From assembly GCF_049060185.1 (NCBI RefSeq), contig NZ_JBMEQO010000002.1: a stretch of DNA of 64,000 bases; one strand, written 5' to 3'. The first letter of the stretch is position 1. Each line of letters begins with the position of its first letter. The translations under genes were made by a program, and so were the position numbers. The notes beneath the pieces are model-generated. The model was not told where the DNA came from, did no database searches, and saw only the letters and a list, made by a program, of their open reading frames with translations. The stretch comes from Nannocystis pusilla. GTDB lineage: Bacteria; Myxococcota_A; Polyangia; Nannocystales; Nannocystaceae. Positions 10,975 to 40,680 of the stretch are shown here, in pieces.

Positions 10975-11058
10975 CCCTCGGGCCGCCGGGCGCGACGCGA
11001 GGTCACTGTAGCGAGCGGGGCTGCGTTGCAAAGTCCGCGCTTCGGCCTCGAGGCCGGT

Positions 11059-11533: not shown

Positions 11534-12570
11534 ATGGTTCTCGAGGGTCGGTGGCGTACGGTGTCGGTGATGCTCGCAATCGTGTCCGGCGGCTGCGACG
11601 AGATCACGGACACTCGCCACTTGCGACCGGTGCCCAGCACGGTCGCCGGTGCCGGGGCGGAGGCCGACGATGCGCTGGCGCTCGAGTGCGAGGCGGAGGC
11701 GCTCGACCTGTGCGAGGCCGAGTGCGTCGATCTCGCGAGAGACGCGCGTCACTGCGGCGGCTGCGGGCGCGTGTGCGCCGGCACGTGCGCGGCGGGCTAC
11801 TGCGAGGCGCAGTGCGGGCCCGGCCAGATCCGCTGCGACGGGCGCTGCGTCGACCGCACGCGCACGACGCCCGACGGGAACGCGCGCCAGTTCGAGTTCA
11901 CCGGCGCGCCGGAGACGTTCGTGGTGCCCGAGTGCGTGTCGCGGCTCACCGTCGAGCTGTGGGGCGCGCAGGGTGGCGGTTCGCGCTGCTGCGACGGGAT
12001 CGATCAGGCGGACGGAGGGCTCGGCGCCTACGTGCGGGCGGAGCTCGAGGTGGAGCCCGGCGAGGCGCTGCAGATCCGCGTCGGCGGGCGCGGCGGGCTC
12101 GAGGGCGCGGCGGGCTACAACGGCGGCGGGCTCGGCGGCGCGTTCGCGGGCGGCGGCGGTGGAGCCAGCGACGTGCGCCAGGGCGGCGGTACGCTCGACG
12201 ACCGGATCTTCGTGGCGGCCGGCGGCGGGGCGGGCAGTGTGGCTGCCCGGACCACGGCGCAGGCGGCCCGGGCGGGCTAGCGATCGGCGGCCCCGGGGTG
12301 GCGCTGCTGCCCGAGTGGCAGGCGGCCGGCGGGGGCACGCAGAGCCACGGCGGGGCCGAGGGCTCGACGCCCGGCGAGGCGGGCGGGTTCGGCGAGGGCG
12401 GGGGCGGCGGGGTCTATCACGTGGCAGGGGGCGGGGGCGGCTGGTTCGGCGGCGGCTCGGCCCACGCGGCGGGCGGGGGCGGCGGGTCGTCGCTCCTCGG
12501 CGCCGACCCGGCCGGCAGCGGACTGCCCGCGGTGCGCGCGGGCGACGGGCTGGTGCGGATCCGCTGGTGA
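11534..12570 (+). CDS. secreted Cys-rich plus glycine-rich protein, paralogue of 10126-10974, 1 frameshift
   Basis: N-terminal Cys-rich module (CEAECVDLARDARHCGGCGRVCAGTCAAGYCEAQCGPGQIRCDGRCV), then FTGAPETFVVPECVSRLTVELWGAQGGGS... and Gly repeats. Frame change at about 12270 (ORF 11534-12280 into ORF 11479-12570). Confidence 0.55.
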
Positions 12571-24783: not shown

Positions 24784-24784
24784 A

Positions 24785-24860
24785 ATGCATGATGGGACAT
24801 GTCGTCAAGGACATTGTCATAATGACATGTCTTTCATGACATGTTCTTGAGGACATATCT
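24785..24860. repeat. 5-unit 14-bp-phased array (GACATGTC, GACATTGTC, TGACATGTC, TGACATGTT, GGACATATC)
   Basis: Cores at 24798, 24812, 24826, 24840 and 24854, plus off-phase CATG at 24788 and 24835. Lies between the convergent 3' ends of the M16 and OmpA genes. Confidence 0.85.
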
Positions 24861-24960
24861 TGGATCGAAGGCGCCGCTCGTCGCAACGAGCCCCGCGCGT
24901 GACGAGCCGGGGCCCGACTCGGGCGCCCGGCTCGTGGACGATGCAGCGCTCGCGCGCGGC

Positions 24961-26373
24961 TCACGACTTCGGCGGGAGCACGCGGAGGGCGATCCGGCGG
25001 TTCTGCGCGCGGCCCTCCTCGGTGGTGTTGGCGGCGACCGGGTGCTGCTCGCCGTAGCCCTCGGTCTCGATGCGATCGCCGGGGACGCCGCGCGCGACCA
25101 GCTCCTTCTTCACGTTGTCGGCGCGCTCCTGCGACAGCTTGAGGTTGGCGTTCGGGTCGCCGGTGTTGTCGGTGTAGCCGCCGACCTTGATGTGCACGCC
25201 GGGATAGGCCTTGAGGATCGCGGCCAGGTTCTCGAGCTGCTCGTGCGAGCCGGCGGCCAGCGTCTGGGCGTTGGTGTCGAACACCAGGCGGTCGAACTCG
25301 AACCAGGTCCTGTCGTCGTACTTGGCGCCCTTGTCGCGCAGGAAGGCGAGCAACTTGGCCTCGACGCCGTTCTCGGCGAACCGCAATTCGCGGTTGACCT
25401 CGGCGACGTGGACGGCCTTGAGCTCGGGCTGGGCCTTCAGCGCCGGGGCGGCCTGTGGGGTCGGAGTGGTCGCGGGGGTCGGGGGTCGGAGTGGTCGCGC
25501 GCTTGCTCGCGGGCGGCGGTGGTGCGGGGGAGGCGTGCGCGTGGCGACGGCCGCCGGGGTCTCGTAGCGCGAGGCGGTGGTGTCGACCTGGCGCTCGGTC
25601 CGGCGGGCGTCGAGGAACCACCAGGCGAGCAGCGCCAGCGGCAACAGGGCCAGCGGGATGGCCCACCAGGCCGGCCGCTTGGGCTCGGCGGCCACGGGGT
25701 GCGGCAGGTGAGGCACTTGCGGCTGGGCCTCGCGGACGACGTCGTAGATCTGCGCGCGGCCGATCGTGCCCGCCAGCGACGGCGGCACTGCGTTCATGAT
25801 CTCGCTCTGGTTGGCGAGCAGCGTCTGCCCGAGCGAGCCGACCGTCAGGCCGCCGCCGCGCACCAGGCCGCCGACCGCCCGCAGGACGAGCGGGGCCGCC
25901 ATGCTCATCAACGAGGCGGCCGCGGTGCTGCCGATGCCGGCGTGGCGCGCCAGGCCGCCGACGACGTCGTCCGTGCGACCGCCGAACAGACTCGAGGTCA
26001 AGCGGCTGCCGAGGTCGCGCGCGCGGGTGGCTTCGGCGGCGCCGCTGAGCAGACGCGCCGGATCGTCGAGCGCCGAGCTGGTGAGCGCCGGGTCCTGGGC
26101 CATGTTGAAGAATTCGCCGAGCGCCAGCGGATCGCGGGCTTTATTGGCCAGACCGGCGAGCATGGCCGAGCCCGCGGCGCCCAGGCCCTTCGACGCCGAG
26201 GCGCTCGAGATCCCGAGGGCGGACGCGGCGCCGTTGACGATGCCGCCGGAGGTCAGCGCGTCGCGAACTGTGTCTGTCAGGAGAACGTCATGGTGTTCCT
26301 TTCGAGTCGCGCGAAAGAGTAATCGGGTCGCGCGATGCGACAACCTGACGCTGCTGCCGTCCGCCGCGCTCAC
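24961..26373 (-). CDS. OmpA/MotB-domain protein with N-terminal DUF937-like region and Pro-rich linker
   Basis: C-terminal OmpA-like domain (...VGGYTDNTGDPNANLKLSQERADNVKKELVARGV...NRRIALRVLP). TM segment WWAIPLALLPLALLAWWF. Intact frame. Exact start uncertain. Confidence 0.7.
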   Translation of the reverse strand: MSAADGSSVRLSHRATRLLFRATRKEHHDVLLTDTVRDALTSGGIVNGAASALGISSASASKGLGAAGSAMLAGLANKARDPLALGEFFNMAQDPALTSSALDDPARLLSGAAEATRARDLGSRLTSSLFGGRTDDVVGGLARHAGIGSTAAASLMSMAAPLVLRAVGGLVRGGGLTVGSLGQTLLANQSEIMNAVPPSLAGTIGRAQIYDVVREAQPQVPHLPHPVAAEPKRPAWWAIPLALLPLALLAWWFLDARRTERQVDTTASRYETPAAVATRTPPPHHRRPRASARPLRPPTPATTPTPQAAPALKAQPELKAVHVAEVNRELRFAENGVEAKLLAFLRDKGAKYDDRTWFEFDRLVFDTNAQTLAAGSHEQLENLAAILKAYPGVHIKVGGYTDNTGDPNANLKLSQERADNVKKELVARGVPGDRIETEGYGEQHPVAANTTEEGRAQNRRIALRVLPPKS

Positions 26374-26499
26374 GGGGGCCGCCGGCGGCGCCGCGGACGG
26401 CGAGGCGGGCCGCTCGTCACAATGACTCGAAGGACATGTCGCAACGGCTATGTGGGCAGCGCCTGGGCCTGCTGGTCGGCGCTGTGATCCGCGCCGCGC

Positions 26500-28817
26500 T
26501 CACGAGGCCGCCGGCTCGCCGCCCTCGCCGTCGAGGATCCGCCGGACCAGACCGACGAGGGCCTCGCCGGTGAACGGCTTGGCGATGAAGCTGGCGGAGG
26601 CGTCGAGCTCGGCGGCGGCCTGCAGGGCGCGCTCGGACGAGCCGCTGGTGAACAGGACGCGCAGGCCGGGGCAGCGCGCCGCGACCCGCTGGGCCAGGCT
26701 GGCGCCGGTGGTCCACGGCATCACCAGGTCGGTGACGAGCAGGTCGATCGCGCCGCCGTTGCGCTCGCAGACCAGCAGCGCCTCGGCGGCGTCGGCGGCC
26801 GCGAGCACGTGGTACCCCGCGGCCCCGAGCACGCGCAGCACGAGGCGCCGCACCGGCTCGCTGTCCTCGACCAGCAGGATGGTCTCGCCGCCGGGCTCGC
26901 GGGTCTGCGGCGCGGGCGCCGTCAACGGCCGGCGCGGCAGCGGCTCCTGGTCGCGCGGGAAGTAGATCCGGAAGGTCGTGCCGCGGCCCGGCTGGCTGTC
27001 GACGACGATCGCGCCGTTGGCCTGACGGACGATGCCGTAGACGATAGCGAGGCCCATGCCGGTGCCGAAGCCGGGCGGCTTGGTGGTGAAGAACGGCTCG
27101 AAGATCCGCGCCCGCGTCGCCTCGTCCATGCCGCTGCCGTCGTCGCGCACGGTCATGACGACGCGCGGACCGGGCGGCAGGTCGAGGTGACCGCCGTCGT
27201 CGTCGCCGGCCTCGAGGGTGGCGGTGGCGATGACGACGCGGCCGCCGACGCGGGTGGCGTCGCGGGCGTTGATGACGAGGTTGACGAGCAGCTGATCGAG
27301 GTGGCCGGGGCCGATCCGCACCGGACACGGCGCGCCGGCCAGAGAGACGGTCAGGATCCGCTCCTCGCCGAGCAGGCGGACGAGCATGCCGCGGAGCTCG
27401 CGGATCTTGGCGCCGAGGTCGACGACCTCGGGGGCGACGATGTCGCGCCGGCTGAAGCTCAGGAGCTGCTGCGTGAGCGCGGCGGCCCGCTCGCTGGCCT
27501 TGCGGATCTCCTCGAGGTCGGCGACGTCGGAGCCGGTGGCCTTGCTGGTGGCGACGCTCTTCTCGAGCATGCCGGTGTAGCTGAGGATCACCGTGAGGAG
27601 GTTGTTGAAGTCGTGGGCGACGCCGGCGGCCATGCGCCCGAGCACCTCCATCTTCTGCGCCTCCTGAAAGCGCCGCTCGAGGTGACGCTCGCGGGTGACG
27701 TCGAGCACGTGGGTGAGGACGAGGTCGGGCGGGACGAAGCCGAACGAGACGACGAAGATCGCGGTCGGGCCGTCCGGCCGGGCGACCTCGACCTCGCGGC
27801 GGAGGGCGCCCTGGGTGGCGACGCAGGTCTTCATGGCGTCGACGAGCTCGGGGCGGTCGGGCAGCAGCTCGGCGAGGGCGCGCCCGACCCACGCCGGCAC
27901 GCGGCCGTCGCTGAGGGCGAGGGCCGCCCGGTTGTGATCGACGAGCACGAAGGTGTCGCCGCGCTGCTGCCAGCACACCGTGGCGATCGGCAGGCGCTCG
28001 TAGAGCTCGCGGGCGTGGCGCTCGCTCGCCCGCAGGGCCTCGACGATGCGGGCCCGCTCGGCCAGGGCGCCGATCCGGCCGGCGATGACGTGCAGCATCT
28101 CCTGCTCCTCGCGCAGGAAGTAGCGCGCGCAGGGGACCTGCGAGTCGGCGATCCTGCACACCTCGATCACGCCGGCGATCCGTCCGCCGACGCTGATCGG
28201 CGCCGACTGGCTGCACGGGTCGGCCGCGAAGCGCGACGAGGTGTAGACGCGGTCGCCGAGCTGGATCCGCGCCGCGACCTCGGGCGGGTAGCAGTAGCCG
28301 CGCGGGATCCGGTCGGCGACCTGCCACAGCGCCTCGTCGAGCGTGATCTCGTCGCCGGCGATCGACGAGACCTCGAAGAGCAGCTCGAGCTCCTTGATCC
28401 GCTCGCGCAGGTCATGCTCGGCGCGGCGCAGCGGGAGATGTCGGTGATGAAGCCCTCGAGCACGGCGGCGGTGCCTTCGCCGCGCAGCAGCCGGCCGCGC
28501 TCCCACACGTGTTTGAGGCGGCCGGCGCGGTCGCGGATCCGGTACTCGATGGTGAACGACTGGCCGGCGGCGACGGCCGTCTCGACGGCCGCCTCGACGG
28601 CGCGACGGTCCATGGCAATGATGAGATCGGCGTAGGCCCGCCGCTCGCTCGCCAGCAATTCGTCGGGCCGATAACCGGTCAGCTCGAGCGCGCCGGCGCT
28701 GACGTAGTCGAGCGTCCAGACGCGGTCGGCCCGGCAGCGATAGACCATCCCCGGCAGGCTGTCGATCAGCGCCGCGAGGTCGCACGGGGCGCCGGCCTGT
28801 CCCTCGGACTCGTGCAT
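26500..28817 (-). CDS. hybrid sensor histidine kinase (PAS-GAF-HisKA-HATPase-REC), 1 frameshift
   Basis: N-terminal PAS domain in ORF 28167-28874 (start MHESEG at 28817). After a frame change at about 28440 comes the 26500-28785 frame with H-box [11 protein letters not shown], ATPase G-boxes and a C-terminal receiver ([13 protein letters not shown]...[10 protein letters not shown]). Confidence 0.75.
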
Positions 28818-29059
28818 ATGCGCCTCAGCATAGCGGACGGGCCGCGTGTCTTCTCGTCCGCGAGTCGACGACACGGCCTCGTCGCGGTTGACAGCGTTCG
28901 CGGCGCGGCGGCCGCGACACCTGATTCAAGGGATAGGTCCGTCGAAAATGACTGTGGTCATTCACCCGCGTCGTCGCCGCCGAGCGTCGGCAGCAGCAGA
29001 CGAGCGGAGGACCTCGATCGTCGCCCTGCGGCCCACACGTGGGGGCCGGCCTCCTCGAG

Positions 29060-29112
29060 TCATCAATGAACGATGGAACATGGCGCTTGGGACATGTCCA
29101 TAGCGCCATGTT
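29060..29112. repeat. 4-unit 14-bp-phased CATG array
   Basis: Cores at 29065 (ATG), 29079, 29093 and 29107. Lies between the dehydrogenase 3' end and the histidine-kinase 5' end. Confidence 0.75.
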
Positions 29113-29127
29113 GGCGCGCGCCGGCGG

Positions 29128-30147
29128 CTAGCGGCGGGCGGCGGCGATCCGCGCGGCCGCCCGCCGCCCGGCCAGGGCCTCGGTGGTGAGGCCGGTGGCG
29201 GCGCTCTCGGCGAGCAGCTCGCCGGCGGTGGTGCCGAGCGCGGCGATGAGCGGCTCGCGGTCGGCGAGGTGCATCACCGAGCGGCCGATGCCCTCGATCA
29301 CCGCGCCGGCCGAGGCGACCACGTCGGGGACGTGCAAGATCCCGCGGGCCCGCAGCGCCTCGGCGACCGCGGGCTCGGCGAGCAGGTTGTTGGCGGCGCC
29401 GCACAGCGCCCAGGCCGGCGTCGCGGCGGCCACCTCGGCGGTGACGACCCCGCCGACGGCGCACGGGGCGAGGATGTCGACCGGCGCGAGCAAGATGTCC
29501 TTCGGGTCATGGACGTGAGAACCTGTCGCTTCGGCCACGTCGTGGGCGCGCCGGGGGTCGACGTCGGCGACCAGCAGGAACGCGCCCTCGGCCGCGAGCG
29601 CGCGCGACCGCCGAGCCGATCGCGCCGCAGCCCTGCACCGCGACCCGCAGGCCGCCGATCCCGCGCCCGCGGGCCGGGCGCACGCGCGGACGCAGGCGAC
29701 CACGCCGCGCGCGACGGCCTCGGCCAGGCCGTGGTCGTCGGTGTGGACGTAGGGGCAGGTCTCGGCCATCGCCGCGAGGTCGGCGGTGGTGGTGCCGAGA
29801 TCGCCGGCGGTGCGGAAGACCCCGTCGAGCTCGGCGATGAACCGGCCGAGCGCGCGGAAGGCCGCCGGGCGATCGAGGCCGGGGTGATCGAGGACGACTG
29901 CCTTGGCCCCGCCGGCGTCGAGGCCCGCGAGCGCGCACTTGCGGGTCATCGCCCGCGCGAGCGCGGCGGCCTCGGCGATCATGGCCGCGGCGTCGGGGTA
30001 GGCGCGGGTCCGGACGCCGCCGGCGGCTGGCCCGAGGGACAGGTCGTCGATCACCAGGACGGCGGCCAGGCCCGAGGATGGGTCGCGCCACAGCACGCAG
30101 CGAGCGGCGCCGGCGGGGTCGAGGAGGTCGGGGAGCGTCGCGGACAT
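29128..30147 (-). CDS. Glu/Leu/Phe/Val dehydrogenase family protein (leucine/valine dehydrogenase-like), 1 frameshift
   Basis: [10 protein letters not shown]...[21 protein letters not shown]...[12 protein letters not shown] (family signatures). Frame change at about 29620. C-terminal NAD-binding domain in the 29128-31035 frame. Confidence 0.65.
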
Positions 30148-30204
30148 CGGCGCGACTTTACCGCGCTTGCGCGCGCGCGTGCGCCGGCCTACCGTCGCCC
30201 GCAC

Positions 30205-30828
30205 ATGGGCACCTGGGACGACGGCCTCTACGACAACGACTCCGCGCTCGACCTCGTCGGCGGCCTGGTGAAGCTGCCCGCGATCGACGCCCCGCCGGTC
30301 GCGCTGGCGGTGGGCATCGGCCTGGTCGCGTGGCTGCAACCGGTGGTGCTGAAGCTGCGCGGAGCGGACCACGTCGCCGCCGCGCTGGCCCACGGCGAGG
30401 CGCTGCCGGCGGACGCGCGCGAGGTGCTGGCCGGGCTCGCGCGCGATCTCGAGGGCGCGCTCAAGGGCCGCTCGCGCAGCGAGGCCGCGGAGGCGGTGAT
30501 CGGCGGCTACAACGACGGCCCGCGGTTCGACGCGCTGCTGCGCGTGCCCGGCGGGCAGGCGAGCATCGACGCCCTGGCCGAGCGCGCGGCCGCGGTCCTC
30601 GATCGCGCCGACGACGGCGATCTTTACGAGGGCGCGGGCGACTACGGGGCGCTCGGTCTCGTCGTCGAGCTGGTCGACGCCGGCCTGTGGAAGCCCACAC
30701 CGGAGCGCGTGGTCGCGTGGCAGGGCCGCTTCGACCGCGCCGACGCGGGCACGCCCGACGAGCGGGGCTTCTGGGACAGGTACGCCGCGCGCGTGCGCCA
30801 GGGCTTCGAGCTCGTCCTGCGCGCGTGA
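30205..30828 (+). CDS. hypothetical protein, DUF4259-like (N-terminal [16 protein letters not shown])
   Basis: 207 aa. ATG at 30205. Family assignment from memory of the MGxWxxGxFDNDxA N-terminal signature. Confidence 0.4.
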
Positions 30829-30930
30829 GCGCGCCTGCGCGATCGTGAGGCGCGGCCGCGGGGCTGCCGTCGCGGTGCGTCGGCTCGTATGCTCGTGGCC
30901 CGCGACGTCCGCCGTCGCGACAGGAGCCCC

Positions 30931-33423
30931 ATGAACGACCGAGGCCGTGAACGAGACCTTGTCCTCGCACCGAACGAGTTCGCCTTCATCCTGGACGAGA
31001 CGAAGGGCAACATCAACGTCTACGTCGGGCCGCACAAGACGAGCCTCGCCAACACCGACGCGCCCGTGGTGTTCGACCCCGGCAGCAAGCGGTTCGAGCG
31101 GCGCCCCTCGACGGCGCGATCCAGTCGCTGTCGATCGCGCCCGAGGGCTGGTACCTGGTGCTGAAGAACCCGGCGACCGACAAGAGCCACCCGCGGACCG
31201 GCGCGCTCAACAACCTGCCGTCGCTCGACACCGGCCGCAAGGTCAACATCCCCGGGCCGGCCTCGTTCGCGCTGTGGCCGGGGCAGATGGTGCGGGTGAT
31301 CCAGGGCCACCACCTGCGCTCCAATCAATACCTGCTCGTGCGCGTGTACGACGAGGAGGGCGCCAAGGCCAACTGGAAGAACGCGGTGCTGCGCATGCGT
31401 GCCGAGGCGGCGGCGGACGAGGGCGAGGCGGTGCACGTGCAGCGGCCGCCCGACCTGACGATGGGCACGCTGCTGATCATCCGCGGCACCGAGGTCGCGT
31501 TCTACATCCCGCCGACCGGCGTCGAGGTGGTGCCGGACGTCGACGGCAATTACGTGCGCGAGGCGATCACGCTCGAGCGGCTCGAGTACTGCATCCTGCT
31601 CGACGAGAACGGCAACAAGCGCTACATCCAGGGCCCTGCGGTGGTGTTTCCGCAGCCGACCGAGACGTTCGTGGCGATGCGAGGCGCCCGCAAGTTCCGC
31701 GCGATCGAGCTCAACGAGAACACCGGCCTCTACATCAAGGTCATCGCGCCGTACGAGGAGAACGGGGTCCGCTACAAGGTCGGCGACGAGCTGTTCATCA
31801 CCGGCAAGGACACGATGATCTACCTGCCGCGGCCGGAGCACGCGATCATCAAGTACGGCGATCAGGAGCGGCACTACGCGGTCGCCATCCCGGCCGGCGA
31901 GGCGCGCTACGTGCTCGACCGCAACAAGGGCACCATCACGCTGAAGCGCGGCCCGGCCATCTACCTGCCCGATCCGCGGATCGAGCTCATCATCCGCCGC
32001 GTGCTCGATCCGAAGACCGTCTCGCTGTGGTTCCCCGGCAACCGCGAGGCCTACGACTACAACCGCCGCCTCGCCCAGCAGAACGCGCCGCAGATCGCCG
32101 CCGAGTTCGCGGCCGTGGCCTCGGTGCCGGTCCAGGCGGCGCGGGCCTCCGCCTCGCCGAAGGCCGCGCCGGCCCCGGGCGGCCCGGCCGCGCCGCCGCC
32201 TCCGCCGCCGTCGTCGGAGTTCGCCGGCGACGACTTCACGCGCAGCCAGACCTTCACCGGGCCGCGCACGATCGTGCTCGACACCCGCTACGACGGCGCG
32301 GTCGCCATCGACGTGTGGACCGGCTACGCGGTGCTGGTGGTGTCGAAGACCGGCGAGCGCAAGGTCGTGACCGGGCCCCACACGCACCTGCTCGAGTACG
32401 ACGAGACGCTGCAGGTGCTCGAGCTGTCGACCGGCACGCCGAAGACCGAGCACAACCTGTTCAAGACGGTCTACCTGCGGGTGCTCAACAACAAGGTGTC
32501 CGACCAGGTCGAGGTCGAGACCCGCGACCTCGTGCGCGTGCAGCTGCAGCTCAGCTACCGCGTCAACTTCGAGGGCGACCCGAACCGGTGGTTCGAGGTC
32601 GAGATACGTCAAGTTCCTGACCGACCACCTGCGCTCGCTCGTCCGCGCGGCGGTCAAGCGCCACGGCATCGAGCAGTTCTACGCCGACTCGGTGGCGATC
32701 CTGCGCGACGTGATCCTCGGGGTCGCGGGCGAGGACGGCAAGCGACCGGGCCGGCGCTTCGAAGAGAACGGGATGCGGGTGTACGACGTCGAGGTGCTAG
32801 AGGTGACGATCGGCGACGAGGCGATCGCCGAGCTGCTGGTCCAGGCGCAGCACGCCGCGGTCCAGCAGACGCTGTCGCTGGCCGCCGAGCAGCGCCGGCT
32901 CGACATGGTGCGCCAGGCCGAGGCGGTCACGCAGCAGGTCGCGGAGGCCAAGTCGGCGACGCTGCAGCAGGCGATCGCGCTGCGCACCCGCGAGGGCGAG
33001 CAGCAGCAGCGCTATCAGCTGGCCGAGCTGGCCGCCAAGCTCGATCTTCATGAGCGCCAGCAGCAGGCGCTGCTGGCCGAGCAGGAGCGGATCGGGGCGA
33101 TCCACGGGGCCGAGCTCGGCCGGCGCCAGGCGACCGCGACGCTCGAGCTGACGGTCCAGCAGCAGCAGCTCGACCAGCGCCTGCGCGAGCTGCAGGCCGA
33201 GGTGGTGGCGGTGGTCGAGAAGGCGCGGGCGGTCTCGCCCGACCTGATCGCCGCGCTGCAGGCGTTCGGCGATCGGGCGCTGGCGGAGAAGATGGCGGAG
33301 TCGATGGCCCCGCTGGCGATCCTCGGCGGCGAGAGCGTGGCCGAGGTGCTGGCACGGCTGCTGCGCGGCTCGCCGCTGGCGCGGCTGCTGCCGGGCGCGG
33401 CGAACGAGCCGGCCAAGTCGTGA
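30931..33423 (+). CDS. major vault protein (MVP) homologue, approximately 830 aa, 2 frameshifts
   Basis: Three stretches align to eukaryotic MVP. N-terminus: [36 protein letters not shown] versus MVP [35 protein letters not shown]. Shoulder: [41 protein letters not shown] versus MVP [40 protein letters not shown]. Cap-helix: [36 protein letters not shown] versus MVP [26 protein letters not shown]. Repeated MVP-repeat modules and a Q/E/A-rich C-terminal coiled coil. RBS CAGGAG. Frame changes at about 31140 and about 32600. Confidence 0.8.
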
Positions 33424-33592
33424 GCGCGAGGCCGCGGCGCCGCGCCCCATGTATGGGGTGCGGCGACCCGGGCAGCGGTGTCGCGGTGCCGCGGCCACCG
33501 GGTCATGGGCGTCGTGAGGCATCGTCCCCGCGCCGCGCGGCCGGCTCGCGCCCGCGCGAGCATCGGTGCAGGCCGCGTGTTAGGCTGTCGCC

Positions 33593-34911
33593 ATGAGCTT
33601 AAGTGATGTGCGCCGTCGTTTGCCCGTGGTCGCCTCGTTGCCCACACCAGCCAATCGCTGGCTGAGCATCAAGGATCGCCGCGAGGCCAAGGCGCCGCGC
33701 TGGGCGGTGTGGGAGCTGACCCTGGCGTGCGATCAGCACTGTGCGCATTGCGGGCCGCGGGCGGGCCACAAGCGGCCCGACGAGCTGTCGACGGAGGAGT
33801 GCCTGAAGGTCGTGCGCGAGCTGGCGGACCTCGGGTGCGGCGAGGTGGTGCTGATCGGCGGCGAGGCCTACCTGCGCAACGACTTCATCCTCATCATCCG
33901 GGCGATCCGCGAGGCCGGGATGGCCTGCACGATGACGACCGGCGGCCTCAACCTGACCGAGGAGCGGGCGGAGGCGATGATCGAGGCCGGGATCGGGAGC
34001 GTGACCTTCTCGATCGACGGCCTCGAGGCCACGCACGATCGCCTGCGCGGGGTGCAGGGCAGCTGGAAGCGGGCGTTCGCGGCGATGCGGCGGATCCGCG
34101 CGGCGGGCGGCAAGATCGCCAGCAACACCCAGATCAACGCCCTGACCCGCCACGAGCTGCTGCCGCTGTTCGAGCTGCTGGCCGACGAGGGCATCCATTC
34201 GTGGCAGCTGCAGATCACGGTGCCGCACGGCAATGCGGCCGACCACCCGGAGATCTTGCTGCAGCCGCACATGTTCATCGACATCTTCGAGACGCTCGAC
34301 AAGGTGCTCGACCGCTGCGAGGCCCGCCAGGTCCGGCTGTGGCCCGGCAACAACCTCGGTTACTTCGGGCCGCTCGAGCGGCGCCTGCGGCAGTCGCAGC
34401 GCAAGCACTGGCGCGGCTGCACGGCCGGGGTGTCGGTGATGGGCATCGAGAGCGACGGGGCGATCAAGAACTGCCCGAGCCTCGGCGGCGGGACCAACAT
34501 CGGCGGCAACTGGCGGGTCCACGGGGTCAAGAAGGTGTGGGAAGAGTCGTATCAGCTCGGCTACATCCGCTCGCGCACGATCGACGACCTGTGGGGCTAT
34601 TGCCGCGAGTGCTACTACGCCGAGACGTGCATGGCCGGCTGCACCGCGGCCGCCGAGCCGCTGCTCGGCCGCCCGGGCAACAACCCGTTCTGCCACCACC
34701 GCGCGGTGATGATGGAGCGCGCGGGCTGCGCGAGCGCATCGAGCAGGTCCGCGGCGCCGGCGGCAAGTCGTTCGACAACGGCCTGTTCCGGGTGATCCGC
34801 GAGCACGTCGATCCGGAGCTGCGCGAGAAGCACGGGCCGGTGGCGATCGAGGAGCCGCGGGTGTCGCGGCTCGAGGAGCCCTACGGGGCCGGGCGCACGG
34901 TCACGCTGTGA
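33593..34911 (+). CDS. radical SAM / SPASM-domain peptide-maturase-like enzyme, 1 frameshift
   Basis: CxxxCxxC cluster LTLACDQHCAHCG. C-terminal Cys-rich SPASM/twitch region (GCTAGVS...CPSLGG...CRECYYAETCMAGC). Frame change at about 34730. Confidence 0.75.
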
Positions 34912-34984
34912 GGCACCTGTTCCGCCGACGCCCACCCGGCGCGCGCGGTGACTCGCGCCGGTGGTTTCACGGCCCGCGCCGAAT

Positions 34985-35035
34985 CATGGGATGACTTCGG
35001 GGACATGTCCCTGAGGTCATGACGTCATGCCGCGG
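34985..35035. repeat. 3-unit 14-bp-phased CATG array between convergent rSAM and repeat-protein genes
   Basis: Cores at 34990 (ATG), 35004 (GGGACATGTCCC) and 35018, with off-phase CATG at 34985 and 35026. Confidence 0.7.
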
Positions 35036-35217
35036 GAGCCCAGTGTCGCGTGGGCGCGACGAGCCTGGCGTTGTCACGGTTCGTCGCGTGAAGGCAGCCG
35101 CACGTAGGCCCGGGCAGATGCGCGGCGCGGCCGGGCCGCGGCGACGAGAGAACCGCATGGCCGCACGGACAGGTTCGTGCGGGCACGCGGCCGGGGTGCG
35201 GGCGAGCGGTCCGGGGC

Positions 35218-35790
35218 TCAGCGGCCCTGGTCGTTGGGCTCCCACGAGTCGGCGCCGGCGTAGGTGCTGGCGTCGGAAGAATCGTCGGAGGTCGTCCAGT
35301 CGGACGTGCTCCACCTCGTCGGGGCCGGCGTAGGTGCTGGCGTCGGACGAGTCGTTGGTGCTGTTGGTCGTCGTGGTCGTCGTCGTGCCCGGCGTGGTGT
35401 TCGTCGTGGTCGACGTATCGGTGGTCGTGGTGGTGGTGTCCCCCACGTGTCCCACTCCTCGTCGGGGCCGGCATAGGTGGCGCCGTCGCTGGAGGTGGTG
35501 GTGATCGTCGGGTCGACGGTGTCACCGCCGGGGTTGGTCGATTCGGAGACCATCGAGGTGTCGACCGTATCGGCGGTGTCGACGGTGTCGCCGGCGGTGG
35601 CCGACGTCTCGTCGCCGATGTCGCGGTCGACCTGGCAAGCGGCGCCCATCACTCCCAGACTGGCGGTGAAGGCGACGGCGGCCCACGTCGCGCCGAGCGA
35701 GTGACGCTGAACGTGACCGCAGAACGGGCAGGTCGCGTCGGAGGCTCGGAACAGACAGGCGCATTCGGGGCAATCGATAAGCGAAGACAT
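35218..35790 (-). CDS. zinc-ribbon / single-TM protein with Thr-rich spacers and three SSDxSTYAGPDEEW repeats, 2 or more frameshifts
   Basis: MSSLIDCPECACLFRASDATCPFCGH (C-x2-C-x12-C-x2-C), then a TM helix, then TITTTSSDGATYAGPDEEWDTW / ...NDSSDASTYAGPDEVEHV... / ...DDSSDASTYAGADSWEPNDQGR spread over two frames. Nucleotide-level direct repeats at about 35243, 35315 and 35465. Confidence 0.5.
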   Translation of the reverse strand: MSSLIDCPECACLFRASDATCPFCGHVQRHSLGATWAAVAFTASLGVMGAACQVDRDIGDETSATAGDTVDTADTVDTSMVSESTNPGGDTVDPTITTTSSDGATYAGPDEEWDTWGTPPPRPPIRRPRRTPRRARRRPRRPTAPTTRPTPAPTPAPTRWSTSDWTTSDDSSDASTYAGADSWEPNDQGR

Positions 35791-35879
35791 GCCCGGACCT
35801 TAGCAGATCGAGGGCGCAGGCGACCAGAAAATCTGCCAGCGCGGGACCGGGTCCGCCCGGCGTCGGGTACACTGAACCG

Positions 35880-38315
35880 GTGTCTCCGGGACTCGCGGTG
35901 GCGCTCGCCCTGATGGCTGCGAGCCTGGTCGGCCTCGTCGCTCTATACCGCGAGGGGCTGCGCCGGGTGCTGTTGCGCGCGGTCGATCCGCGGCCGCTGG
36001 CGCTGCTGCGGATCGCGTTCGGTTGCTGTCTACTCGTCAACTTGCTCGAGATCGCGCCGCTCGCCTCGTATCTGTTCTCCGACGAGGGCTCTTGCCGCGG
36101 GCCGCCGTCCCGGAGCGGATGGGCCGCGGGGCGCTGATCGGCTTCGGCGACGGGGTACGCGAGCCCGCGGGCCCGCGCGACGCGACTGCGGTCCTCGATT
36201 TCGTGATCAGCGGCCGGTGGTCGCCGCTTTACTTCGCCGACAGTCCCAGTGTGGTCGGCGTACACCTCGGCCTGCTGTTCGCGGCCGCGCTGGCGCTCAC
36301 GCTGGGGTTTCGCACGCGGCTCAGCGCGATCGCCTCGTGGTTGCTCTACGCCGGGCTGCTGCGCCGCGGCGAGGCCCACTGGGGCGGAGAGCAGGTGTTC
36401 TGCGCGTTCCTGTTCCTGCTGATGTGGTCGCGCTGCGGGGCGGCCTACAGCGTGGACAACTGGCGCCGCTGTCGGGCATTGCGACGACGTGGCCTTTTGA
36501 GCATGCCCTCGGGGCCAGGTGCGGGCGCGGGCGCGGCCCCGTCGGCCGCGGCGCCGCACGGGCTGGCGGCGATCTACCGCCGGATCCCGGCCTGGCCGCA
36601 GGCGCTGATGGCCGGCCAATTGGCGCTGTGCTACGCGGCCAACGGCTGGGTCAAGGCGGGCACGTCGTGGCAGACGGGGGACGTGCTGCAGTTCGTGCTG
36701 CTGCGCGACACGTATGTCCGTTGGGACATGTCGGCCGCGATCGCGACGATGGGGCCGTGGCCGCTGCGCCTGGCCAGCTGGGGCGTGATGTGGTGGGAGC
36801 GGCTGTTCCCGCTGGTGCTGGTCGGGCTGGCCGCGCGGGCGCTCGGGCGCTCGGGGACGCCGGCGCTGCGCGGGCCGCGGCGGCGGCGGCCCGACTGTAC
36901 TGGGGCGGGCTGGCGGCGGCGGCGGCGATCGCCGCGGCTGTCCCTGAGGACCTGGTCGAAAAGCCAGGCACGCCGGGGGCGCCGGAGCGGGCGGCGGCGC
37001 TGGCGGTGCTGGCTGCCGTGTGCGCGGCGGTGGCGATCGCGGGACCGCGGGCCGGGGCGGCGGCGCGGCGGCTGGCCGCGGGACCGCTGGCGCCGAAGTG
37101 GTGGTTCGGGTTCGGGCTGCTATTCCACCTCGGCAACCACGCGCTGCTGGCGGTGGGGGCGTTCGCGCCGGCGACGATCAGCGTCTACCTGGTCTGTGGG
37201 GCAGGTCCGTGGGCGGTGGCGACGCTGCAGCGAGCGCTGCGCGGGCTGGCGCGGCGCGGCGTGCCTGTCCCTGAGCACCTGCGCGAAGAGACAGCTTGCG
37301 AGGACCCGTCGCTGCCGCACCTGCACCGCGACGCGGCGGCGCTGCCGGGGTGGGCGATCGCGGGGGCAGGCGGGCTGGTGCTGGCCGGCGGGGCGATCGC
37401 GCTGATCGGCGAGGCGGGGGCGCGGGCGTGGCACGCGGCGTGGCTGGCCGCAGGGACAGGTCTGACGATCGTCGGCTGGCGGATCGCGCGGCGCGATCGC
37501 GGCGCGGTGATCGAGCTGCGCGAGCCGTGGGCCCATGGGCCGGCGGGACGCCTCGCGGCGGGCGGGCTGGTCGCGTATCACGTGGTGGCCCTGCTGGCGT
37601 GGCAGCTGCCGGCGTGGTCGAGCGTACCGTGGCGCGCGCAGGCGCGGGGGCTGGTGGGGCCGTGGATCGAGCTGAGCTTCACGAGCCAGGTGTGGGCGAT
37701 GTTCGCCCCCAACCCGCCGCGCGAGCAGAACTTGCTGCGGGCGACGGTGGTCGACGCGGCGGGGAACGGCATCGCTTCGGAACGGAGCCGCAGCGCGAGG
37801 GCGACCTGCCGCGGGCGCACCTGTGGCACGACCGCTGGCGGAAGATCGGCGACAACGTGGTCGGGCAGCGCGAGAAGCTGGCGCCGTGGCACGCGCGCTA
37901 CCTGTGCCGCCGCTGGGCGCTCGAGCACGCGGGCGAGCCGCCGCGCGAGGTGCTGCTCGAGAATCTGCGGGCTCCGCTGCCGCCGCCCGGCAGCGACCCG
38001 CGCGAACACTTCGCGGCGCGACAGCAGGTGCGGGTGCTGGCGCAGGTGAGCTGCGCGGAGGAGCCGTTCGCGCAGCTGGACCCTGAGGTGCGCGCGCGGC
38101 ACGGGCTGGCGCCTGCCCCGGCGGAGACGCGGCGGTTCGCGTGGGAGCGGCCGGCGACGTGGGCGGAACGCCAGGCGCGGCGCGATCCGCTGGCGCCGCT
38201 GTGGCCGCTCGCAGCGCTGGGGCTGCTGGGGGCGCTGGCTCGGTGGAGCGGCGAGGATCGCCGCGCTCGCGTGGCGGCGCGGGTGGCGGAGGCTCGGGCG
38301 GAGGAGCAGGGGTGA
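35880..38315 (+). CDS. HTTM-domain (vitamin K-dependent gamma-carboxylase-like) polytopic membrane protein, approximately 810 aa, 3 or more frameshifts
   Basis: DPRPLALLRIAFGCCLLVNLLEIAPLASYLFSDEG...FVISGRWSPLYFADSPSVVGVHLGLLFAAALALTLGFRTRLSAIASWLLYAGLLRRGEAHWGGEQVFCAFLFLLMW matches the HTTM consensus. Fragments in ORFs 35880-36137, 36023-about 36900, 36217-about 37800 and 37296-38315. Confidence 0.65.
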
Positions 38316-38364
38316 ACGGGAGCGCGTTGCTGGGGCTAGCGACCTGAAGCGATGTGACGGGTCG

Positions 38365-38590
38365 AGCAATTCGACAGGACATGTCCTGGAGGCCATGTCT
38401 TTGGCAGGTCAGCAGAGGCGAGGCTGTTTCAAGATGTCTTGAAGGACATGTCCTTGAAGACTTTGGGTGAATGCGGAATAAGCGAGGGCTGCGGAGGTCT
38501 TTACGAGCATGACCCCGAGGTCATGTCCTAGATTCGTTGCGGCGATTGGCAATGCTGGGTTGTGAGCGAGCCTGGCTTCGAGGACATGTC
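38365..38590. repeat. multiple short 14-bp-phased CATG palindromic pairs/triplets
   Basis: Cores at 38370/38384, 38423/38437 (AAGATGTCTTGAAGGACATGTCC), 38500/38514 and 38581. Lies between HTTM and the ATPase gene. Confidence 0.75.
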
Positions 38591-38672
38591 GGGAGACGGC
38601 GGGGCGGGCGAACCGGGGAATCGCACGCTGGAGTGGGGGCGCGGGCGGGGTCTCGCGCGGTAAGACTCGGGC

Positions 38673-40375
38673 ATGCAGACGCCGTCGCTCATCGCGTGCT
38701 GGTCGGCTCATGGCGGGGTGGGGCGCACTCTGGCCGTGTGGGGCGTCGGGCGGGTGCTGGCGGCGCGCGGGCTGCGGGTGTTGCTGGTGGACCTCGACCT
38801 CGAGTCGCCGGGGCTGACGCGGATCGCCGCGACGGACGGCGAAGGGGTCGTCGAGTGGGCGGTCGGGCGGGGCCATGAACAGGCGCTCGTCGAGCGGTGC
38901 GTGGCGATCGGTGAGGGGCTGCGGGTGCTGCCGGCGGGGCGGCTCGATGCGGGCTACTGGGACCGCCTCGACGGGTGGGCGGCCGGGGACCGAGGCGCGG
39001 CGTGGGACGAGCTGCGCCGGGCGATCGCGGCGGCCGACGTCGCCGAGGTCGTGCTGATCGACGCCGCCGCAGGTGCATCGCGGGCGGCCGAGCGGGTGGT
39101 GCGGGCGCTCGCCGATCGCGTGGTGCTGTTCACGGCGCTCGATCGCCAGCACGTGGCCGGCACGGCCGATCTGCTGCGCCGCTGCGAGGACGCGGGGCTG
39201 GCGACGCGGGTGGTGGGCAGCCCGCTGCCGTTCGGGGAGGACGAGCTGAGGGCGGTGCGCGAGGCGGCGGCACGCGCGGCGGGGATCGAGCTGTCGCTGG
39301 TGATCCCGCAGCACCCGCGCGTGGCCCTGGACGAGCGAGCGAGCGAGCGCGGGCCGATCCTCGTGGCGCACGTCGAGCTGGCGCGCCTGCTGCTCGTCGA
39401 CGCGGGGTTCGAGGTGCGAGCGATCCTCCGCGGGGTCGAGACGGCGATCGCCGAAGAGGCGTGGCCGCGCGTGGTGTCGCTGGTGCGCGTGGCGAAGGTG
39501 GTCGAGCCGAGCGGCGAGTCGCTGGCGGCGACGCTGGGCTGGTTGCGCGAGCACGCGGGGCCGGGCGCGGGCGATCCGGTGTTCGCGCTGCTGGTGGAGG
39601 CGTTGCCGGCCGATGCGCCGGTCCACGCGAGCTTCGCCACGGCGCTGCACCGGGCGGGCAATCCGCTGGCGCGCGGCTTTTATGAAAAGTTCTTGGCGGA
39701 GGTGCCCGAGCACGCGGACATGCTCGGCAACTTCGCGGCGTTCCTCAGCGACGTGGGCGGCGAGCACGACCTGGCCGAGGCGTACTATGAGCGGGCGCTG
39801 GCGGCCGACAGCGAGGACGCCGATCATCGCGGCAACTTCGCCAACTTCCTCGCGCTGATCCGCGGCGATCGGGAGCGCGCCGACGCGTGTTACCGCGAGA
39901 CGATCGCGCTGGCGCCGGAGGACGCGCATCACCTCGGCAACTATGCGAACTTCCGTGTGGGGGCGTTCGCCGACGCGGCCGGGGCGGAGGCGCTGTACCG
40001 CCGGGCGCTGGCAGTCGAGCCGGACGACGGCAACTTGCTGGGGAACTTCGCCCGGCTGCTGTTCGCGGAGGGGCGCGCGGTTGAGGGTCGCGAGCTGCTG
40101 GCGCGCGCGCTGGCGGCGTCGGAACCCGAGTCGGCGCTGCGCTGCGAGCTGTGCTTCTACTCGTTCGCGCACGCGCCGGAGCTGTGCCCCGACGCGCTGC
40201 CGCAGCTGCTCGCGGCGCTGAGGGCCGGATCCGCTCGCCGGGGTGGGACCTGAAAGCGAACGTGGCGCGGGCGCGAGACGAGGGGCATCCGCACGGCGAG
40301 CTGGTGGCCGCGCTGGCGCGGGTTATCGCCGACGAGGCGCCGCTTATCGTGCTCGATGCATTCACGCGAGCGTGA
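38673..40375 (+). CDS. ParA/MinD-like P-loop ATPase fused to TPR repeats, 1 frameshift
   Basis: Deviant Walker A SAHGGVGRTLAVWGV (Arg in place of the usual Lys), VLLVDLDLESPG, then at least 5 TPR-like repeats (NFAAFLSDVG..., NFANFLALIR..., NYANFRVGAF..., NFARLLFAEG...). Frame change at about 40215. Confidence 0.55.
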
Positions 40376-40680
40376 GCGCGTAGGGGGCAGGCTTGTCGCG
40401 GCGCGTGGAGTGAGCAGCCATGGCGACATGCGGCCGGCGAGTGCGAGCGGCCCGACGAGCGAGAGCTCTGCCGTGATTCTCGCGAGTCGTCGCCCAGCCC
40501 CCGACGCACGAGCGCCGACTTGGGGCGCGTCCTCGTCGCGTAGGGGCTGCCGAGCCGACGGCGCGGAGGCGAGGTTCCCAAGTACGGGAATCAGAGGTAG
40601 CAGTCAGAAGCGTGCGGCGTTCGGAGCGACGGGACGTTGGCGTCGTCGCGGGGGTGCTCGCGAGGTTGTGACGCGGCAGG

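What the first reader, a model, noticed from the sequence alone, without database searches (positions are those of the whole stretch)
33593..38315. Radical-SAM/SPASM maturase paired with an HTTM (vitamin-K gamma-carboxylase-like) membrane protein: candidate protein-modification system next to MVP
The rSAM enzyme has the canonical CxxxCxxC cluster plus a C-terminal SPASM Cys cluster. SPASM enzymes typically modify peptide or protein substrates. Two genes downstream is an approximately 810-aa HTTM-domain protein whose N-terminal 250 aa match the HTTM consensus of vitamin-K-dependent gamma-carboxylase. I recall that an rSAM/SPASM plus HTTM pairing was predicted by comparative genomics as a 'glycine-rich repeat modification' system; the name and accession are from memory and unverified. 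If that analogy holds, candidate substrates in this window are the glycine-rich secreted paralogues at 10126-12570, the SSDxSTYAGPDEEW repeat protein encoded between the two enzymes, or MVP itself. The combination MVP plus rSAM/SPASM plus HTTM plus ParA-like/TPR ATPase in one locus is, to my knowledge, undescribed.
Basis: partly seen in the sequence, partly recalled or inferred. Interest (0 to 1): 0.82.

Follow-up and report, generated by a model that had tools for sequence, protein, structure and literature searches.

The report
Radical-SAM, tyrosine-motif lipoprotein, carboxylase-like enzyme module
A Nannocystis locus pairs a radical-SAM enzyme with a small tyrosine-motif protein that is probably its substrate, and in one clade adds a vitamin-K-carboxylase-like membrane enzyme, giving a testable candidate substrate for a bacterial enzyme family of largely unknown function.

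Summary
Both enzymes are real, but the window reads them through frameshifts. The rSAM/SPASM gene is 33593-34911 (439 aa, one 1-bp deletion). The HTTM-like gene is 35880-38315 (about 810 aa, three 1-bp deletions). Intact orthologues exist in other Nannocystis genomes. One gene, not two, lies between them, and it is on the minus strand.

The rSAM's conserved partner is that small gene, not the HTTM protein. In 54 of 68 related Myxococcota loci with full flanks, a small protein lies within 2.5 kb of the rSAM. It has an N-terminal zinc ribbon, a hydrophobic segment, a lipobox-like Cys and a disordered tail. In those tails 87% of tyrosines sit in Y-[G/A]-[G/A]-P motifs.

The rSAM's best family matches, both below cut-off, are TIGR04103 and TIGR03913. 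TIGR04103 is probably the PlpX tyramine-splicease family, which acts on X-Tyr-Gly.

MVP and the ParA/TPR gene are neighbours only within genus Nannocystis. The GRRM analogy and the glycine-rich or MVP substrates are not supported. No chemistry was tested.

The parts
33593..34911 (+). Radical SAM/SPASM enzyme, 439 aa after correcting a 1-bp deletion near 34723. The literal ORF ends at 34795.
   Evidence: Pfam PF04055 scores 90 bits. NCBIfam best hits are TIGR04103 at 398.5 bits (cut-off 725) and TIGR03913 at 389.4 bits (cut-off 591.75). The corrected protein is 98% identical to intact N. pusilla P0001. The indel is mapped. The seven SPASM cysteines are invariant across 22 homologues.
35218..35790 (-). 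Small candidate substrate protein, 190 aa. It has a Zn ribbon (CPEC...CPFC), a hydrophobic segment ending in a lipobox-like GAAC, and a T/S/D-rich tail with three T-Y-A-G-[P/A]-D motifs. The middle third is out of frame in the window because of indels at 35314 and 35441.
   Evidence: ORF and translation are; the intact orthologue is L001:11613-12185(-); the indels are. It is the only ORF in the whole window with two or more Y[GA][GA][PA] motifs. Homologous small ORFs lie next to the rSAM in 54 of 68 fully flanked loci.
35880..38315 (+). HTTM / vitamin-K gamma-carboxylase-like membrane protein, about 810 aa. It is read in four frame segments (35880-36086, 36087-36877, 36878-37761, 37762-38315).
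35791..35879 (.). Intergenic region of about 90 bp between the divergently oriented small-protein and HTTM genes. It may hold a shared promoter (inferred).
   Evidence: The same divergent arrangement occurs in L001, L005 and L008-L012. No promoter scan was run.

Best explanation
This is a three-gene protein-modification module.

Step 1 (inferred from conserved adjacency and motif statistics). The cytoplasmic rSAM/SPASM enzyme modifies the tyrosine-centred motifs of the small protein encoded between the two enzymes. The motif is T-Y-A-G-P-D here and X-Y-G-[G/A]-P in relatives.

Step 2 (inferred from family similarity only). [quoted passage not shown] Another Tyr-directed radical reaction is possible.

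Step 3 (inferred from sequence features). The N-terminal Zn ribbon plus signal-anchor acts as the recognition and leader part. The lipobox-like Cys suggests export and lipidation, which would leave a lipid-anchored disordered tail outside the cytoplasm.

Step 4 (inferred from clade-specific linkage, fold and the conserved catalytic Lys). In the Nannocystis clade, the GGCX-like HTTM membrane enzyme then acts on that exported tail. It may carry out a quinol/O2-driven carboxylation of the Asp/Glu residues that follow the motif.

MVP, the ParA/TPR ATPase and the glycine-rich proteins are not part of the module.

My rough sub-probabilities are:
- rSAM acts on the small protein: 0.75
- the reaction is tyramine splicing: 0.4
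- the HTTM enzyme acts on the same protein: 0.4
- that action is carboxylation: 0.2
For: - **rSAM family.** Members are conserved at over 60% identity across Nannocystaceae.
- **Small partner.** Of 68 family loci with full flanks, 54 have a Zn-ribbon + TM + Y[GA] small ORF within 2.5 kb, often within 100 bp. Four more have a variant motif.
- **Lipobox.** 66 of 74 distinct small proteins have a lipobox-like Cys.
- **Tyr context.** In the tails, 151 of 174 Tyr are followed by G or A (29% expected). Pro is at Y+3 in 118 of 174 (7.7% expected).
- **Nearest rSAM models.** The best NCBIfam models are peptide maturases: TIGR04103 at 398 bits and TIGR03913 at 389 bits, rising to 498-513 bits for two Polyangia relatives tested (L070, L075). 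The next model scores 156 bits and heme-related models 141 bits or less.
- **Known chemistry.** Spliceases are SPASM rSAM enzymes that excise tyramine at XYG motifs. Many act without an accessory protein (PMC11414181, PMC10849128, PMC11002830).
- **rSAM-HTTM linkage.** The two genes are adjacent in L001, L003, L005 and L008-L012, with unrelated flanks and one inversion. These rSAMs form one clade, and its sister L017 is also HTTM-adjacent.
- **HTTM identity.** The HTTM protein is a GGCX homologue with the catalytic Lys invariant.
- **Acidic residues.** In HTTM-linked loci the motif is followed by D and usually E or D.
Against: - No chemistry was tested.
- The rSAM is far below the cut-offs of both TIGR04103 and TIGR03913. 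It scores the two about equally, and the chemistry of TIGR03913 is unknown to me.
- The window's motif has Ala, not Gly, after Tyr (YAG rather than YG).
- No Nif11/NHLP leader or PlpY-like gene was detected.
- The HTTM link rests on gene adjacency in a narrow lineage. It could be retained synteny.
- Most rSAM/small-protein pairs work without any HTTM gene. More distant HTTM paralogues sit in other contexts.
- L017 has an rSAM next to an HTTM gene but no detectable small protein.
- The GGCX His160 equivalent is not obviously conserved, though that part of the alignment is weak.
- Acidic residues after the motif also occur in loci without HTTM.
- A cytoplasmic rSAM acting on an exported tail requires modification before translocation.
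Confidence: 0.5

Rival explanations
1. The rSAM/small-protein pair is a real two-component system. The HTTM gene is only a syntenic neighbour inherited within one Nannocystaceae clade, and it acts on something else such as a lipid, a quinone or another protein.
For: 71 of 83 rSAM family loci have no HTTM gene within 10 kb. HTTM paralogues at 35-37% identity lie next to other genes, for example FAD amine oxidases, without any rSAM. All HTTM-linked rSAMs form a single clade, so the link could have arisen once.
Against: Adjacency survives complete turnover of flanking genes. It also survives a change from tandem to divergent orientation, across rSAM identities of 67-100% and HTTM identities of 30-100%. 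The small gene and the HTTM gene share a roughly 90-bp divergent intergenic region in most loci.
Confidence: 0.27
2. The small Zn-ribbon/TM protein is a membrane-anchored signalling or anti-sigma-like protein. The Y-G-G-P motifs are binding or structural motifs, and the rSAM modifies a different, unidentified substrate.
For: The N-terminal Zn-ribbon + TM + extracytoplasmic tail resembles anti-sigma architecture. Sigma-70 genes recur near the rSAM in 13 loci and Ser/Thr kinase genes in 12 loci.
Against: Sigma and kinase genes are very abundant in myxobacteria and are present in only a minority of loci. No other gene is conserved across the loci. Nearly all Tyr residues are confined to one motif. 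That motif matches the known target motif of the closest enzyme family (PMC11414181).
Confidence: 0.1
3. One reading: a GRRM-like (glycine-rich repeat modification) rSAM + HTTM system. Its substrate would be the glycine-rich secreted paralogues at 10126-12570 or MVP, with MVP and the ParA/TPR ATPase belonging to the locus.
For: The genes are co-located in this window and in four other Nannocystis genomes.
Against: The GRRM rSAM model is not among the top 25 NCBIfam hits. The glycine-rich paralogue is a PF12810 ALK/LTK glycine-rich-domain protein with no NCBIfam hit and no Tyr motif. MVP and ParA/TPR are absent from HTTM-linked loci L003, L005, L011 and L012.
Confidence: 0.03
4. The rSAM is a cofactor-biosynthesis or sulfatase-maturing enzyme (NirJ/AhbD-like 'heme biosynthesis protein', or anSME), not a peptide or protein maturase.
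For: Some database entries name homologues 'heme biosynthesis protein'. AhbD and NirJ models are hit at 107-141 bits.
Against: Peptide-maturase models score about 390-400 bits against 141 bits or less for heme-related models. No anSME model is in the top 25. No heme d1, siroheme or sulfatase genes were seen in the gene tables of the five contexts inspected (L001, L002, L003, L005, L017).
Confidence: 0.03

Closest known systems
Tyramine spliceases and spliceotide precursors (PlpX/PlpY/PlpA, RhaX/RhaA). PlpX is in IPR026482, which I take to correspond to NCBIfam TIGR04103; that mapping is from memory.
   Same: Both are SPASM-type rSAM enzymes. TIGR04103 is the top NCBIfam hit. The adjacent gene encodes a protein with repeated X-Tyr-Gly-type motifs. 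Like the 'binary' spliceotide pathways, no separate accessory protein is evident (PMC11414181).
   Different: The score is about half the family cut-off (398 against 725). The precursor has no Nif11/NHLP leader. Instead it has a Zn ribbon followed by a lipoprotein-like signal and a long disordered tail. In Nannocystis the motif is Y-A-G, not Y-G. An HTTM/GGCX-like enzyme is attached. I could not check whether Scott et al. (Chem 2022, 8:2659; 939 predicted systems) already list this myxobacterial type.
TIGR03913, GDL-motif peptide-associated radical SAM/SPASM maturase
   Same: It is the second-best NCBIfam hit with nearly the same score (389 bits, model positions 6-365 of 477).
   Different: It is below the cut-off of 591.75. 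No GDL-motif peptide was found. A small-protein Zn ribbon from relative L070 weakly resembles the C-terminal part of this model (E 0.18). That hints at a domain fused in one family and separate in the other, but the match is not significant.
[quoted passage not shown]
   Different: Identity is 12-15%, with extra helices and insertions and low global TM-scores (0.3-0.38). The His160 equivalent is not clearly conserved. The host is bacterial, so the quinol would be menaquinol. No propeptide-type substrate is known.
Bacterial HTTM enzymes with assigned roles: MloH (malonomycin aspartyl carboxylase) and HTTM + DUF5819 pairs
   Same: These are bacterial HTTM membrane enzymes in which the HTTM region is combined with a second, lumenal-type domain, as in GGCX (bioRxiv 10.64898/2026.08.19.745780).
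   Different: MloH works on a PKS-NRPS intermediate. Here the linked candidate substrate is a ribosomal protein, and the partner enzyme is an rSAM. A full-text search for 'HTTM' together with 'radical SAM' found no paper describing such a pairing.
   Same: It uses an rSAM/SPASM enzyme that acts on repeat motifs.
   Different: The GRRM rSAM model is not among the 25 best hits. The window's glycine-rich proteins belong to PF12810.

Membership tests
Radical SAM superfamily (PF04055) | CxxxCxxC cluster motif and a Pfam score above the gathering cut-off | tested here: met
   C46-x3-C50-x2-C53. PF04055 scores 90.1 bits against a cut-off of 29.5.
SPASM domain rSAM (PF13186) | C-terminal seven-Cys pattern for two auxiliary clusters | tested here: met
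   C276, C294, C337, C340, C346, C350 and C367 are invariant in 22 homologues. Pfam SPASM itself is sub-threshold (17.2 against 21.5 bits). Full-length matches to SPASM-family NCBIfam models cover this region.
Tyramine splicease (PlpX type; NCBIfam TIGR04103) | Score at or above the equivalog cut-off (725 bits) | tested here: not met
   398.5 bits. Two tested Polyangia relatives (L070, L075) score 508-513 bits.
Tyramine splicease (PlpX type; NCBIfam TIGR04103) | Adjacent precursor carrying X-Tyr-Gly splice motifs | tested here: inconclusive
   In relatives Y+1 is Gly in 121 of 174 cases and Ala in 30 of 174. The window's three motifs are T-Y-A-G, with Ala after Tyr.
Tyramine splicease (PlpX type; NCBIfam TIGR04103) | Nif11/NHLP-type leader, or a PlpY-type RRE partner in ternary systems | tested here: not met
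   The small protein has no significant Pfam hit (only a weak zinc-ribbon match at E 0.016) and no NCBIfam hit. No RRE-like gene is annotated nearby. Binary spliceotide systems also lack the Y protein (PMC11414181).
Tyramine splicease (PlpX type; NCBIfam TIGR04103) | [quoted passage not shown] | not testable with these tools
   This needs co-expression and LC-MS/MS.
TIGR03913 GDL-motif peptide rSAM maturase | Score at or above the cut-off (591.75 bits) | tested here: not met
   389.4 bits.
GRRM system (glycine-rich repeat modification) | rSAM of the GRRM equivalog family plus a cognate glycine-rich repeat protein | tested here: not met
   The GRRM rSAM model is not in the 25 best NCBIfam hits; the lowest listed hit scores 47.7 bits. 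The glycine-rich paralogue hits PF12810 and no NCBIfam model.
Anaerobic sulfatase-maturing enzyme (anSME) | Best match to the anSME family and a nearby sulfatase | tested here: not met
   No anSME model is among the 25 best hits. No sulfatase gene appears in the gene table of the orthologous locus L001.
HTTM domain (PF05090) | Pfam score at or above the gathering cut-off (27.7 bits) | tested here: inconclusive
   Scores are 26.1 and 25.7 bits, E 1e-5, and only profile positions 60-132 are matched. Most homologues carry a precomputed PF05090 hit.
Vitamin-K gamma-carboxylase (GGCX) fold | Structural homology across the membrane domain and beyond | tested here: met
Vitamin-K gamma-carboxylase (GGCX) fold | Catalytic lysine (human K218) | tested here: met
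   'YaanGwaKsGavW' aligns with 'YFIAGVKKLDADW'. K259 is invariant in 33 family members.
Vitamin-K gamma-carboxylase (GGCX) fold | Quinol- and O2-dependent carboxylation of Glu in a protein substrate | not testable with these tools
   This needs a membrane enzyme assay with menaquinol and labelled bicarbonate, or MS of the native protein.

The most novel reading that the evidence does not exclude
The 810-aa protein is a working bacterial vitamin-K (menaquinol)-dependent carboxylase, and its natural substrate is the ribosomally made lipoprotein encoded next to it. It would carboxylate the Asp/Glu residues that follow each Tyr motif, after a splicease-like rSAM has rewritten the backbone at that Tyr. 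This would be the first bacterial 'Gla-type' protein system. It would also be the first case of an rSAM and a GGCX homologue acting in tandem on one substrate.
Probability: 0.18. Interest if true: 0.85.

Novelty: new variant of a known kind. Interest (0 to 1): 0.6.

Why it matters
Bacterial HTTM/GGCX homologues are numerous, yet very few have an assigned role. MloH in malonomycin biosynthesis is the example cited. A conserved module that places such an enzyme beside a defined small protein with a sharply conserved motif turns "what do bacterial vitamin-K-carboxylase homologues do?" into a direct experiment.

The work also defines a Myxococcota-wide pairing of an rSAM with a Zn-ribbon, lipoprotein-like Tyr-motif protein. 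All listed homologues of the small protein are annotated only as hypothetical and carry no precomputed Pfam domain. The rSAM family is below the cut-off of every NCBIfam model among its 25 best hits.

If the chemistry is tyramine splicing, this would be a case in which the leader is a zinc ribbon plus an export signal. The product would be a lipid-anchored protein carrying ketoamide groups.

Tried and rejected
- **GRRM analogy.** Rejected on NCBIfam and Pfam results.
- **MVP, ParA/TPR or glycine-rich proteins as module members or substrates.** Rejected because they are absent from non-Nannocystis HTTM-linked loci and lack the Tyr motif.
- **anSME or heme-biosynthesis reading of the rSAM.** Rejected on relative scores.
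- **Pseudogene reading of the frameshifts.** Judged unlikely. Nearly every gene in the aligned 15 kb carries 1-2 bp deletions, mostly in G/C runs, while orthologues elsewhere are intact.
- **Window source.** I tested whether it is N. exedens DSM 71. It is not: identity to L058 is 89-93%.
- **A further conserved neighbour.** BLAST clustering of ORFs around 83 loci found only sporadic sigma-70 and kinase genes.
- **Literature.** Searches for 'HTTM' + 'radical SAM' and for TIGR04103/TIGR03913 found nothing relevant. Two key papers are not held: Scott et al. 2022 (Chem), tried by a guessed DOI, and Haft and Basu 2011, tried by a PMC id recalled from memory. Supplements with splicease sequences are not held either. 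I therefore could not place the rSAM in a tree with PlpX or RhaX.
- **Limits of the tools.** L017 and L059 (rSAM next to a paralogue-type HTTM) showed no clear small Tyr-motif protein; L059 is a short contig. Complex prediction for rSAM plus substrate is not possible with the tools offered.

Full report
**What is in the window**

The window is about 73% G+C, so most long ORFs are spurious. Third-position GC tracking shows one plus-strand coding track from 33593 to about 34911. A second plus-strand track runs from about 35880 to 38315, and its reading frame changes three times.

The stretch 23632-38304 aligns to a Nannocystis pusilla contig (locus L001) at 95.6% nucleotide identity. Relative to that contig the window carries single-base deletions, mostly in G/C runs:
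- at 34723, in the rSAM gene;
- at 36086, 36877 and 37761, in the HTTM-like gene;
- at 35314 (2 bp) and 35441, in the small gene between them;
- further deletions in the MVP gene and in genes upstream.

In L001 the same genes are intact: MVP 831 aa, rSAM 439 aa, a 190-aa gene on the opposite strand, an HTTM-like protein of 814 aa, and a CbiA/TPR protein of 569 aa. The frame-corrected rSAM is 98% identical to the intact N. pusilla protein. The stitched HTTM-like protein is 93% identical to an intact 810-aa protein of Nannocystis sp. RBIL2. I read the frameshifts as assembly errors, not gene decay.

Neither enzyme is a single ORF as written. There is one intervening gene, not two. That gene is on the minus strand.

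**The rSAM enzyme**

It has the CxxxCxxC motif and scores 90 bits on Pfam Radical_SAM. Its seven SPASM cysteines are invariant in 22 homologues.

Its best NCBIfam models are TIGR04103 (nif11-class peptide radical SAM maturase 3) at 398.5 bits and TIGR03913 (GDL-motif peptide-associated maturase) at 389.4 bits. Both are far below their cut-offs of 725 and 591.75. The next model scores 156 bits, heme-related AhbD/NirJ models score 141 bits or less, and no anSME model is in the top 25. The enzyme is thus a peptide/protein-maturase-type rSAM in an unnamed sister family. It is not an anSME, a heme enzyme or a GRRM enzyme.

**What travels with the rSAM**

I fetched 80 loci of this rSAM family from Nannocystaceae, Polyangiales, Sandaracinaceae and related MAGs. 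I added loci obtained by exact-protein look-up.

The recurring neighbour is a small ORF with a fixed architecture:
- an N-terminal zinc ribbon (CxxC...CPFC);
- a hydrophobic segment that usually ends in a lipobox-like Cys (66 of 74 distinct proteins);
- a disordered G/T/S/D-rich tail.

Such an ORF with a Tyr-Gly/Ala motif lies within 2.5 kb of the rSAM in 54 of 68 loci with full flanks. Four more loci have a variant motif.

Tyrosine in these tails is almost confined to one context:
- 151 of 174 Tyr are followed by Gly or Ala (29% expected from composition);
- 118 of 174 have Pro at +3 (7.7% expected).

The window's copy is the minus-strand gene 35218-35790, with three T-Y-A-G-[P/A]-D motifs. 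It is the only ORF in all 64 kb with two or more such motifs. All listed homologues of it in the protein collection are annotated only as hypothetical or are unnamed, and none has a precomputed Pfam domain. Clustering of ORFs around the loci found no other widely conserved partner.

**Likely chemistry**

Published work describes spliceases as SPASM-type rSAM enzymes, with PlpX as the prototype (InterPro IPR026482). [quoted passage not shown] Hundreds of 'binary' pathways lack the accessory Y protein and rely on a leader element (PMC11414181, PMC10849128, PMC11002830, PMC9811515, PMC10533398).

That TIGR04103 is the PlpX family is my inference. It rests on the model's name, on its coverage of the SPASM region, and on memory of the InterPro mapping. 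I could not verify it.

The nearest-family match combined with a Tyr-Gly-type repeat protein makes a splicease-like reaction the leading hypothesis. The caveats are substantial:
- the score is about half the family cut-off;
- TIGR03913 scores equally, and I do not know its chemistry;
- the Nannocystis motif has Ala after Tyr;
- no Nif11/NHLP leader is present.

The mining study of Scott et al. (Chem 2022) may already list this myxobacterial type. It is not in the held library, so I could not check.

**The HTTM-like protein**

Pfam HTTM is just below threshold, at 26 bits over a short stretch. Stronger evidence comes from elsewhere. A profile of 33 family members hits only human vitamin-K gamma-carboxylase in the PDB (E 2.6e-5). 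The match falls in four colinear segments, and GGCX K218 aligns with a family-invariant lysine.

It is therefore a full-length GGCX homologue with the key base retained. Whether it carboxylates anything is untested.

**Is the rSAM-HTTM pairing meaningful?**

The family of about 800-aa HTTM-like proteins is narrow. Only 67 clusters were found, and all named ones are Nannocystaceae-type.

Evidence for coupling:
- Orthologues at 46% identity or more sit next to the rSAM in every contig examined: L001, L003/L013, L005 and L008-L012.
- Four further rSAM/HTTM hit pairs list the same longest-contig length, which suggests shared contigs.
- Flanking genes differ completely between genera, and in L003 the two genes are divergent rather than tandem.
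- In a neighbour-joining tree of 79 rSAMs the HTTM-linked ones form one clade. Its sister, L017, is also next to an HTTM gene of the paralogous type.

Evidence against coupling:
- 71 of 83 rSAM loci have no HTTM gene within 10 kb.
- HTTM paralogues at 35-37% identity lie in unrelated contexts.

The link is thus clade-specific. It is consistent with an accessory tailoring step, but adjacency alone does not prove it.

In HTTM-linked loci the motif reads T-Y-[A/G]-G-[P/A]-D and is usually followed by Glu or Asp. These are the kinds of residue a carboxylase would target. Similar acidic residues also occur in some loci without HTTM.

**What is not part of it**

MVP (MVP_shoulder 104 bits) flanks the module only in genus Nannocystis. 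So does the KGGVGR-type AAA ATPase with TPR repeats (NF047398, 98 bits). The glycine-rich paralogue tested (10126-10968) is an ALK/LTK glycine-rich-domain protein (PF12810, 72 bits), and neither paralogue hits an NCBIfam model or has the Tyr motif.

**Proposed mechanism**

All steps below are inferred.
1. The small protein is made with a zinc-ribbon leader.
2. The cytoplasmic rSAM modifies its Tyr motifs.
3. The hydrophobic segment and lipobox direct export and lipidation, which would remove the leader.
4. In the Nannocystis clade, the GGCX-like enzyme modifies the exported tail at the outer face of the inner membrane.

A full-text search for 'HTTM' with 'radical SAM' found no description of such a pairing.

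**Verdict**

The enzyme pair exists and is linked in one clade. The substrate is most likely the small protein between the two enzymes. The MVP, GRRM and glycine-rich parts of the interpretation fall away. I rate it a new variant of a known kind: a splicease-like rSAM system extended by a GGCX homologue. Interest is 0.6.

Noticed in passing
window 23632-40384 (for example 28435, 29598, 29674, 31107, 32605, 34723, 36086, 36877, 37761, 40230): There are many uncompensated 1-2 bp deletions relative to N. pusilla L001, mostly in G/C runs, and they break almost every gene in the aligned region. This looks like an unpolished long-read assembly, so any ORF-based reading of this window needs frame correction.
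   Followed up: partly
window ~30931-33423 (+): A bacterial major-vault-protein homologue is present (831 aa in L001; MVP_shoulder 104 bits, Vault_3 38.6 bits, Band_7 28 bits). It carries a 2-bp deletion at 32605 in the window. It neighbours the rSAM only within genus Nannocystis.
   Followed up: partly
window 38673-40384 (+): This gene encodes a KGGVGR-motif variant AAA ATPase (NF047398, 98 bits, above its cut-off of 90) fused to TPR repeats. A 1-bp deletion at 40230 truncates it in the window. It is conserved next to the HTTM gene only in Nannocystis.
   Followed up: partly
window 10126-12570 (+): Two glycine-rich paralogues lie here. The first matches PF12810, the glycine-rich domain of the ALK/LTK receptor kinases (72 bits), which is an unusual domain to see in a bacterium. 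The second paralogue is frame-broken.
   Followed up: partly
L010 and L015 (N. punicea FL3, about 18 kb apart); also L042, L050; L040, L047-L049, L053: Nannocystis genomes carry several paralogous rSAM/small-protein pairs. N. punicea has at least four rSAM copies, and only one is HTTM-linked. Some paralogue partners are longer proteins with a single [F/I]-Y-A motif followed by a Cys-rich domain.
   Followed up: partly
L070 small protein residues 3-29, compared with TIGR03913 profile positions 428-454: The zinc ribbon of one small protein weakly matches the C-terminal end of the TIGR03913 rSAM model (E 0.18). This hints that the ribbon is fused to the enzyme in that family. The match is not significant on its own.
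   Followed up: no
L007 8223-9938 and 10001-12619 (N. pusilla CP185339.1): A 571-aa protein resembling only the C-terminal two-thirds of the HTTM-like protein (no HTTM N-domain) sits directly upstream of an 872-aa HTTM paralogue. No rSAM is nearby.
   Followed up: no
L089 6586-7932 and L090 6406-7773: Distant HTTM paralogues (35-37% identity) are divergently paired with an FAD amine-oxidase-type gene in two MAGs. This may be a different conserved pairing for this enzyme family.
   Followed up: no
L002, L014, L016, L018, L026 and others (13 loci with sigma-70; 12 loci with kinase): ECF-type sigma-70 genes and large Ser/Thr kinase genes recur within 5 kb of the rSAM in a minority of loci. This may be chance, given how abundant these genes are in myxobacteria.
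   Followed up: no
L058 (N. exedens DSM 71, NZ_NETK01000001.1, contig end): The orthologous locus in this public assembly is also heavily frame-broken. One 3-kb alignment to the window has 86 gap openings. This shows that error-prone assemblies of this genus are in circulation.
   Followed up: no
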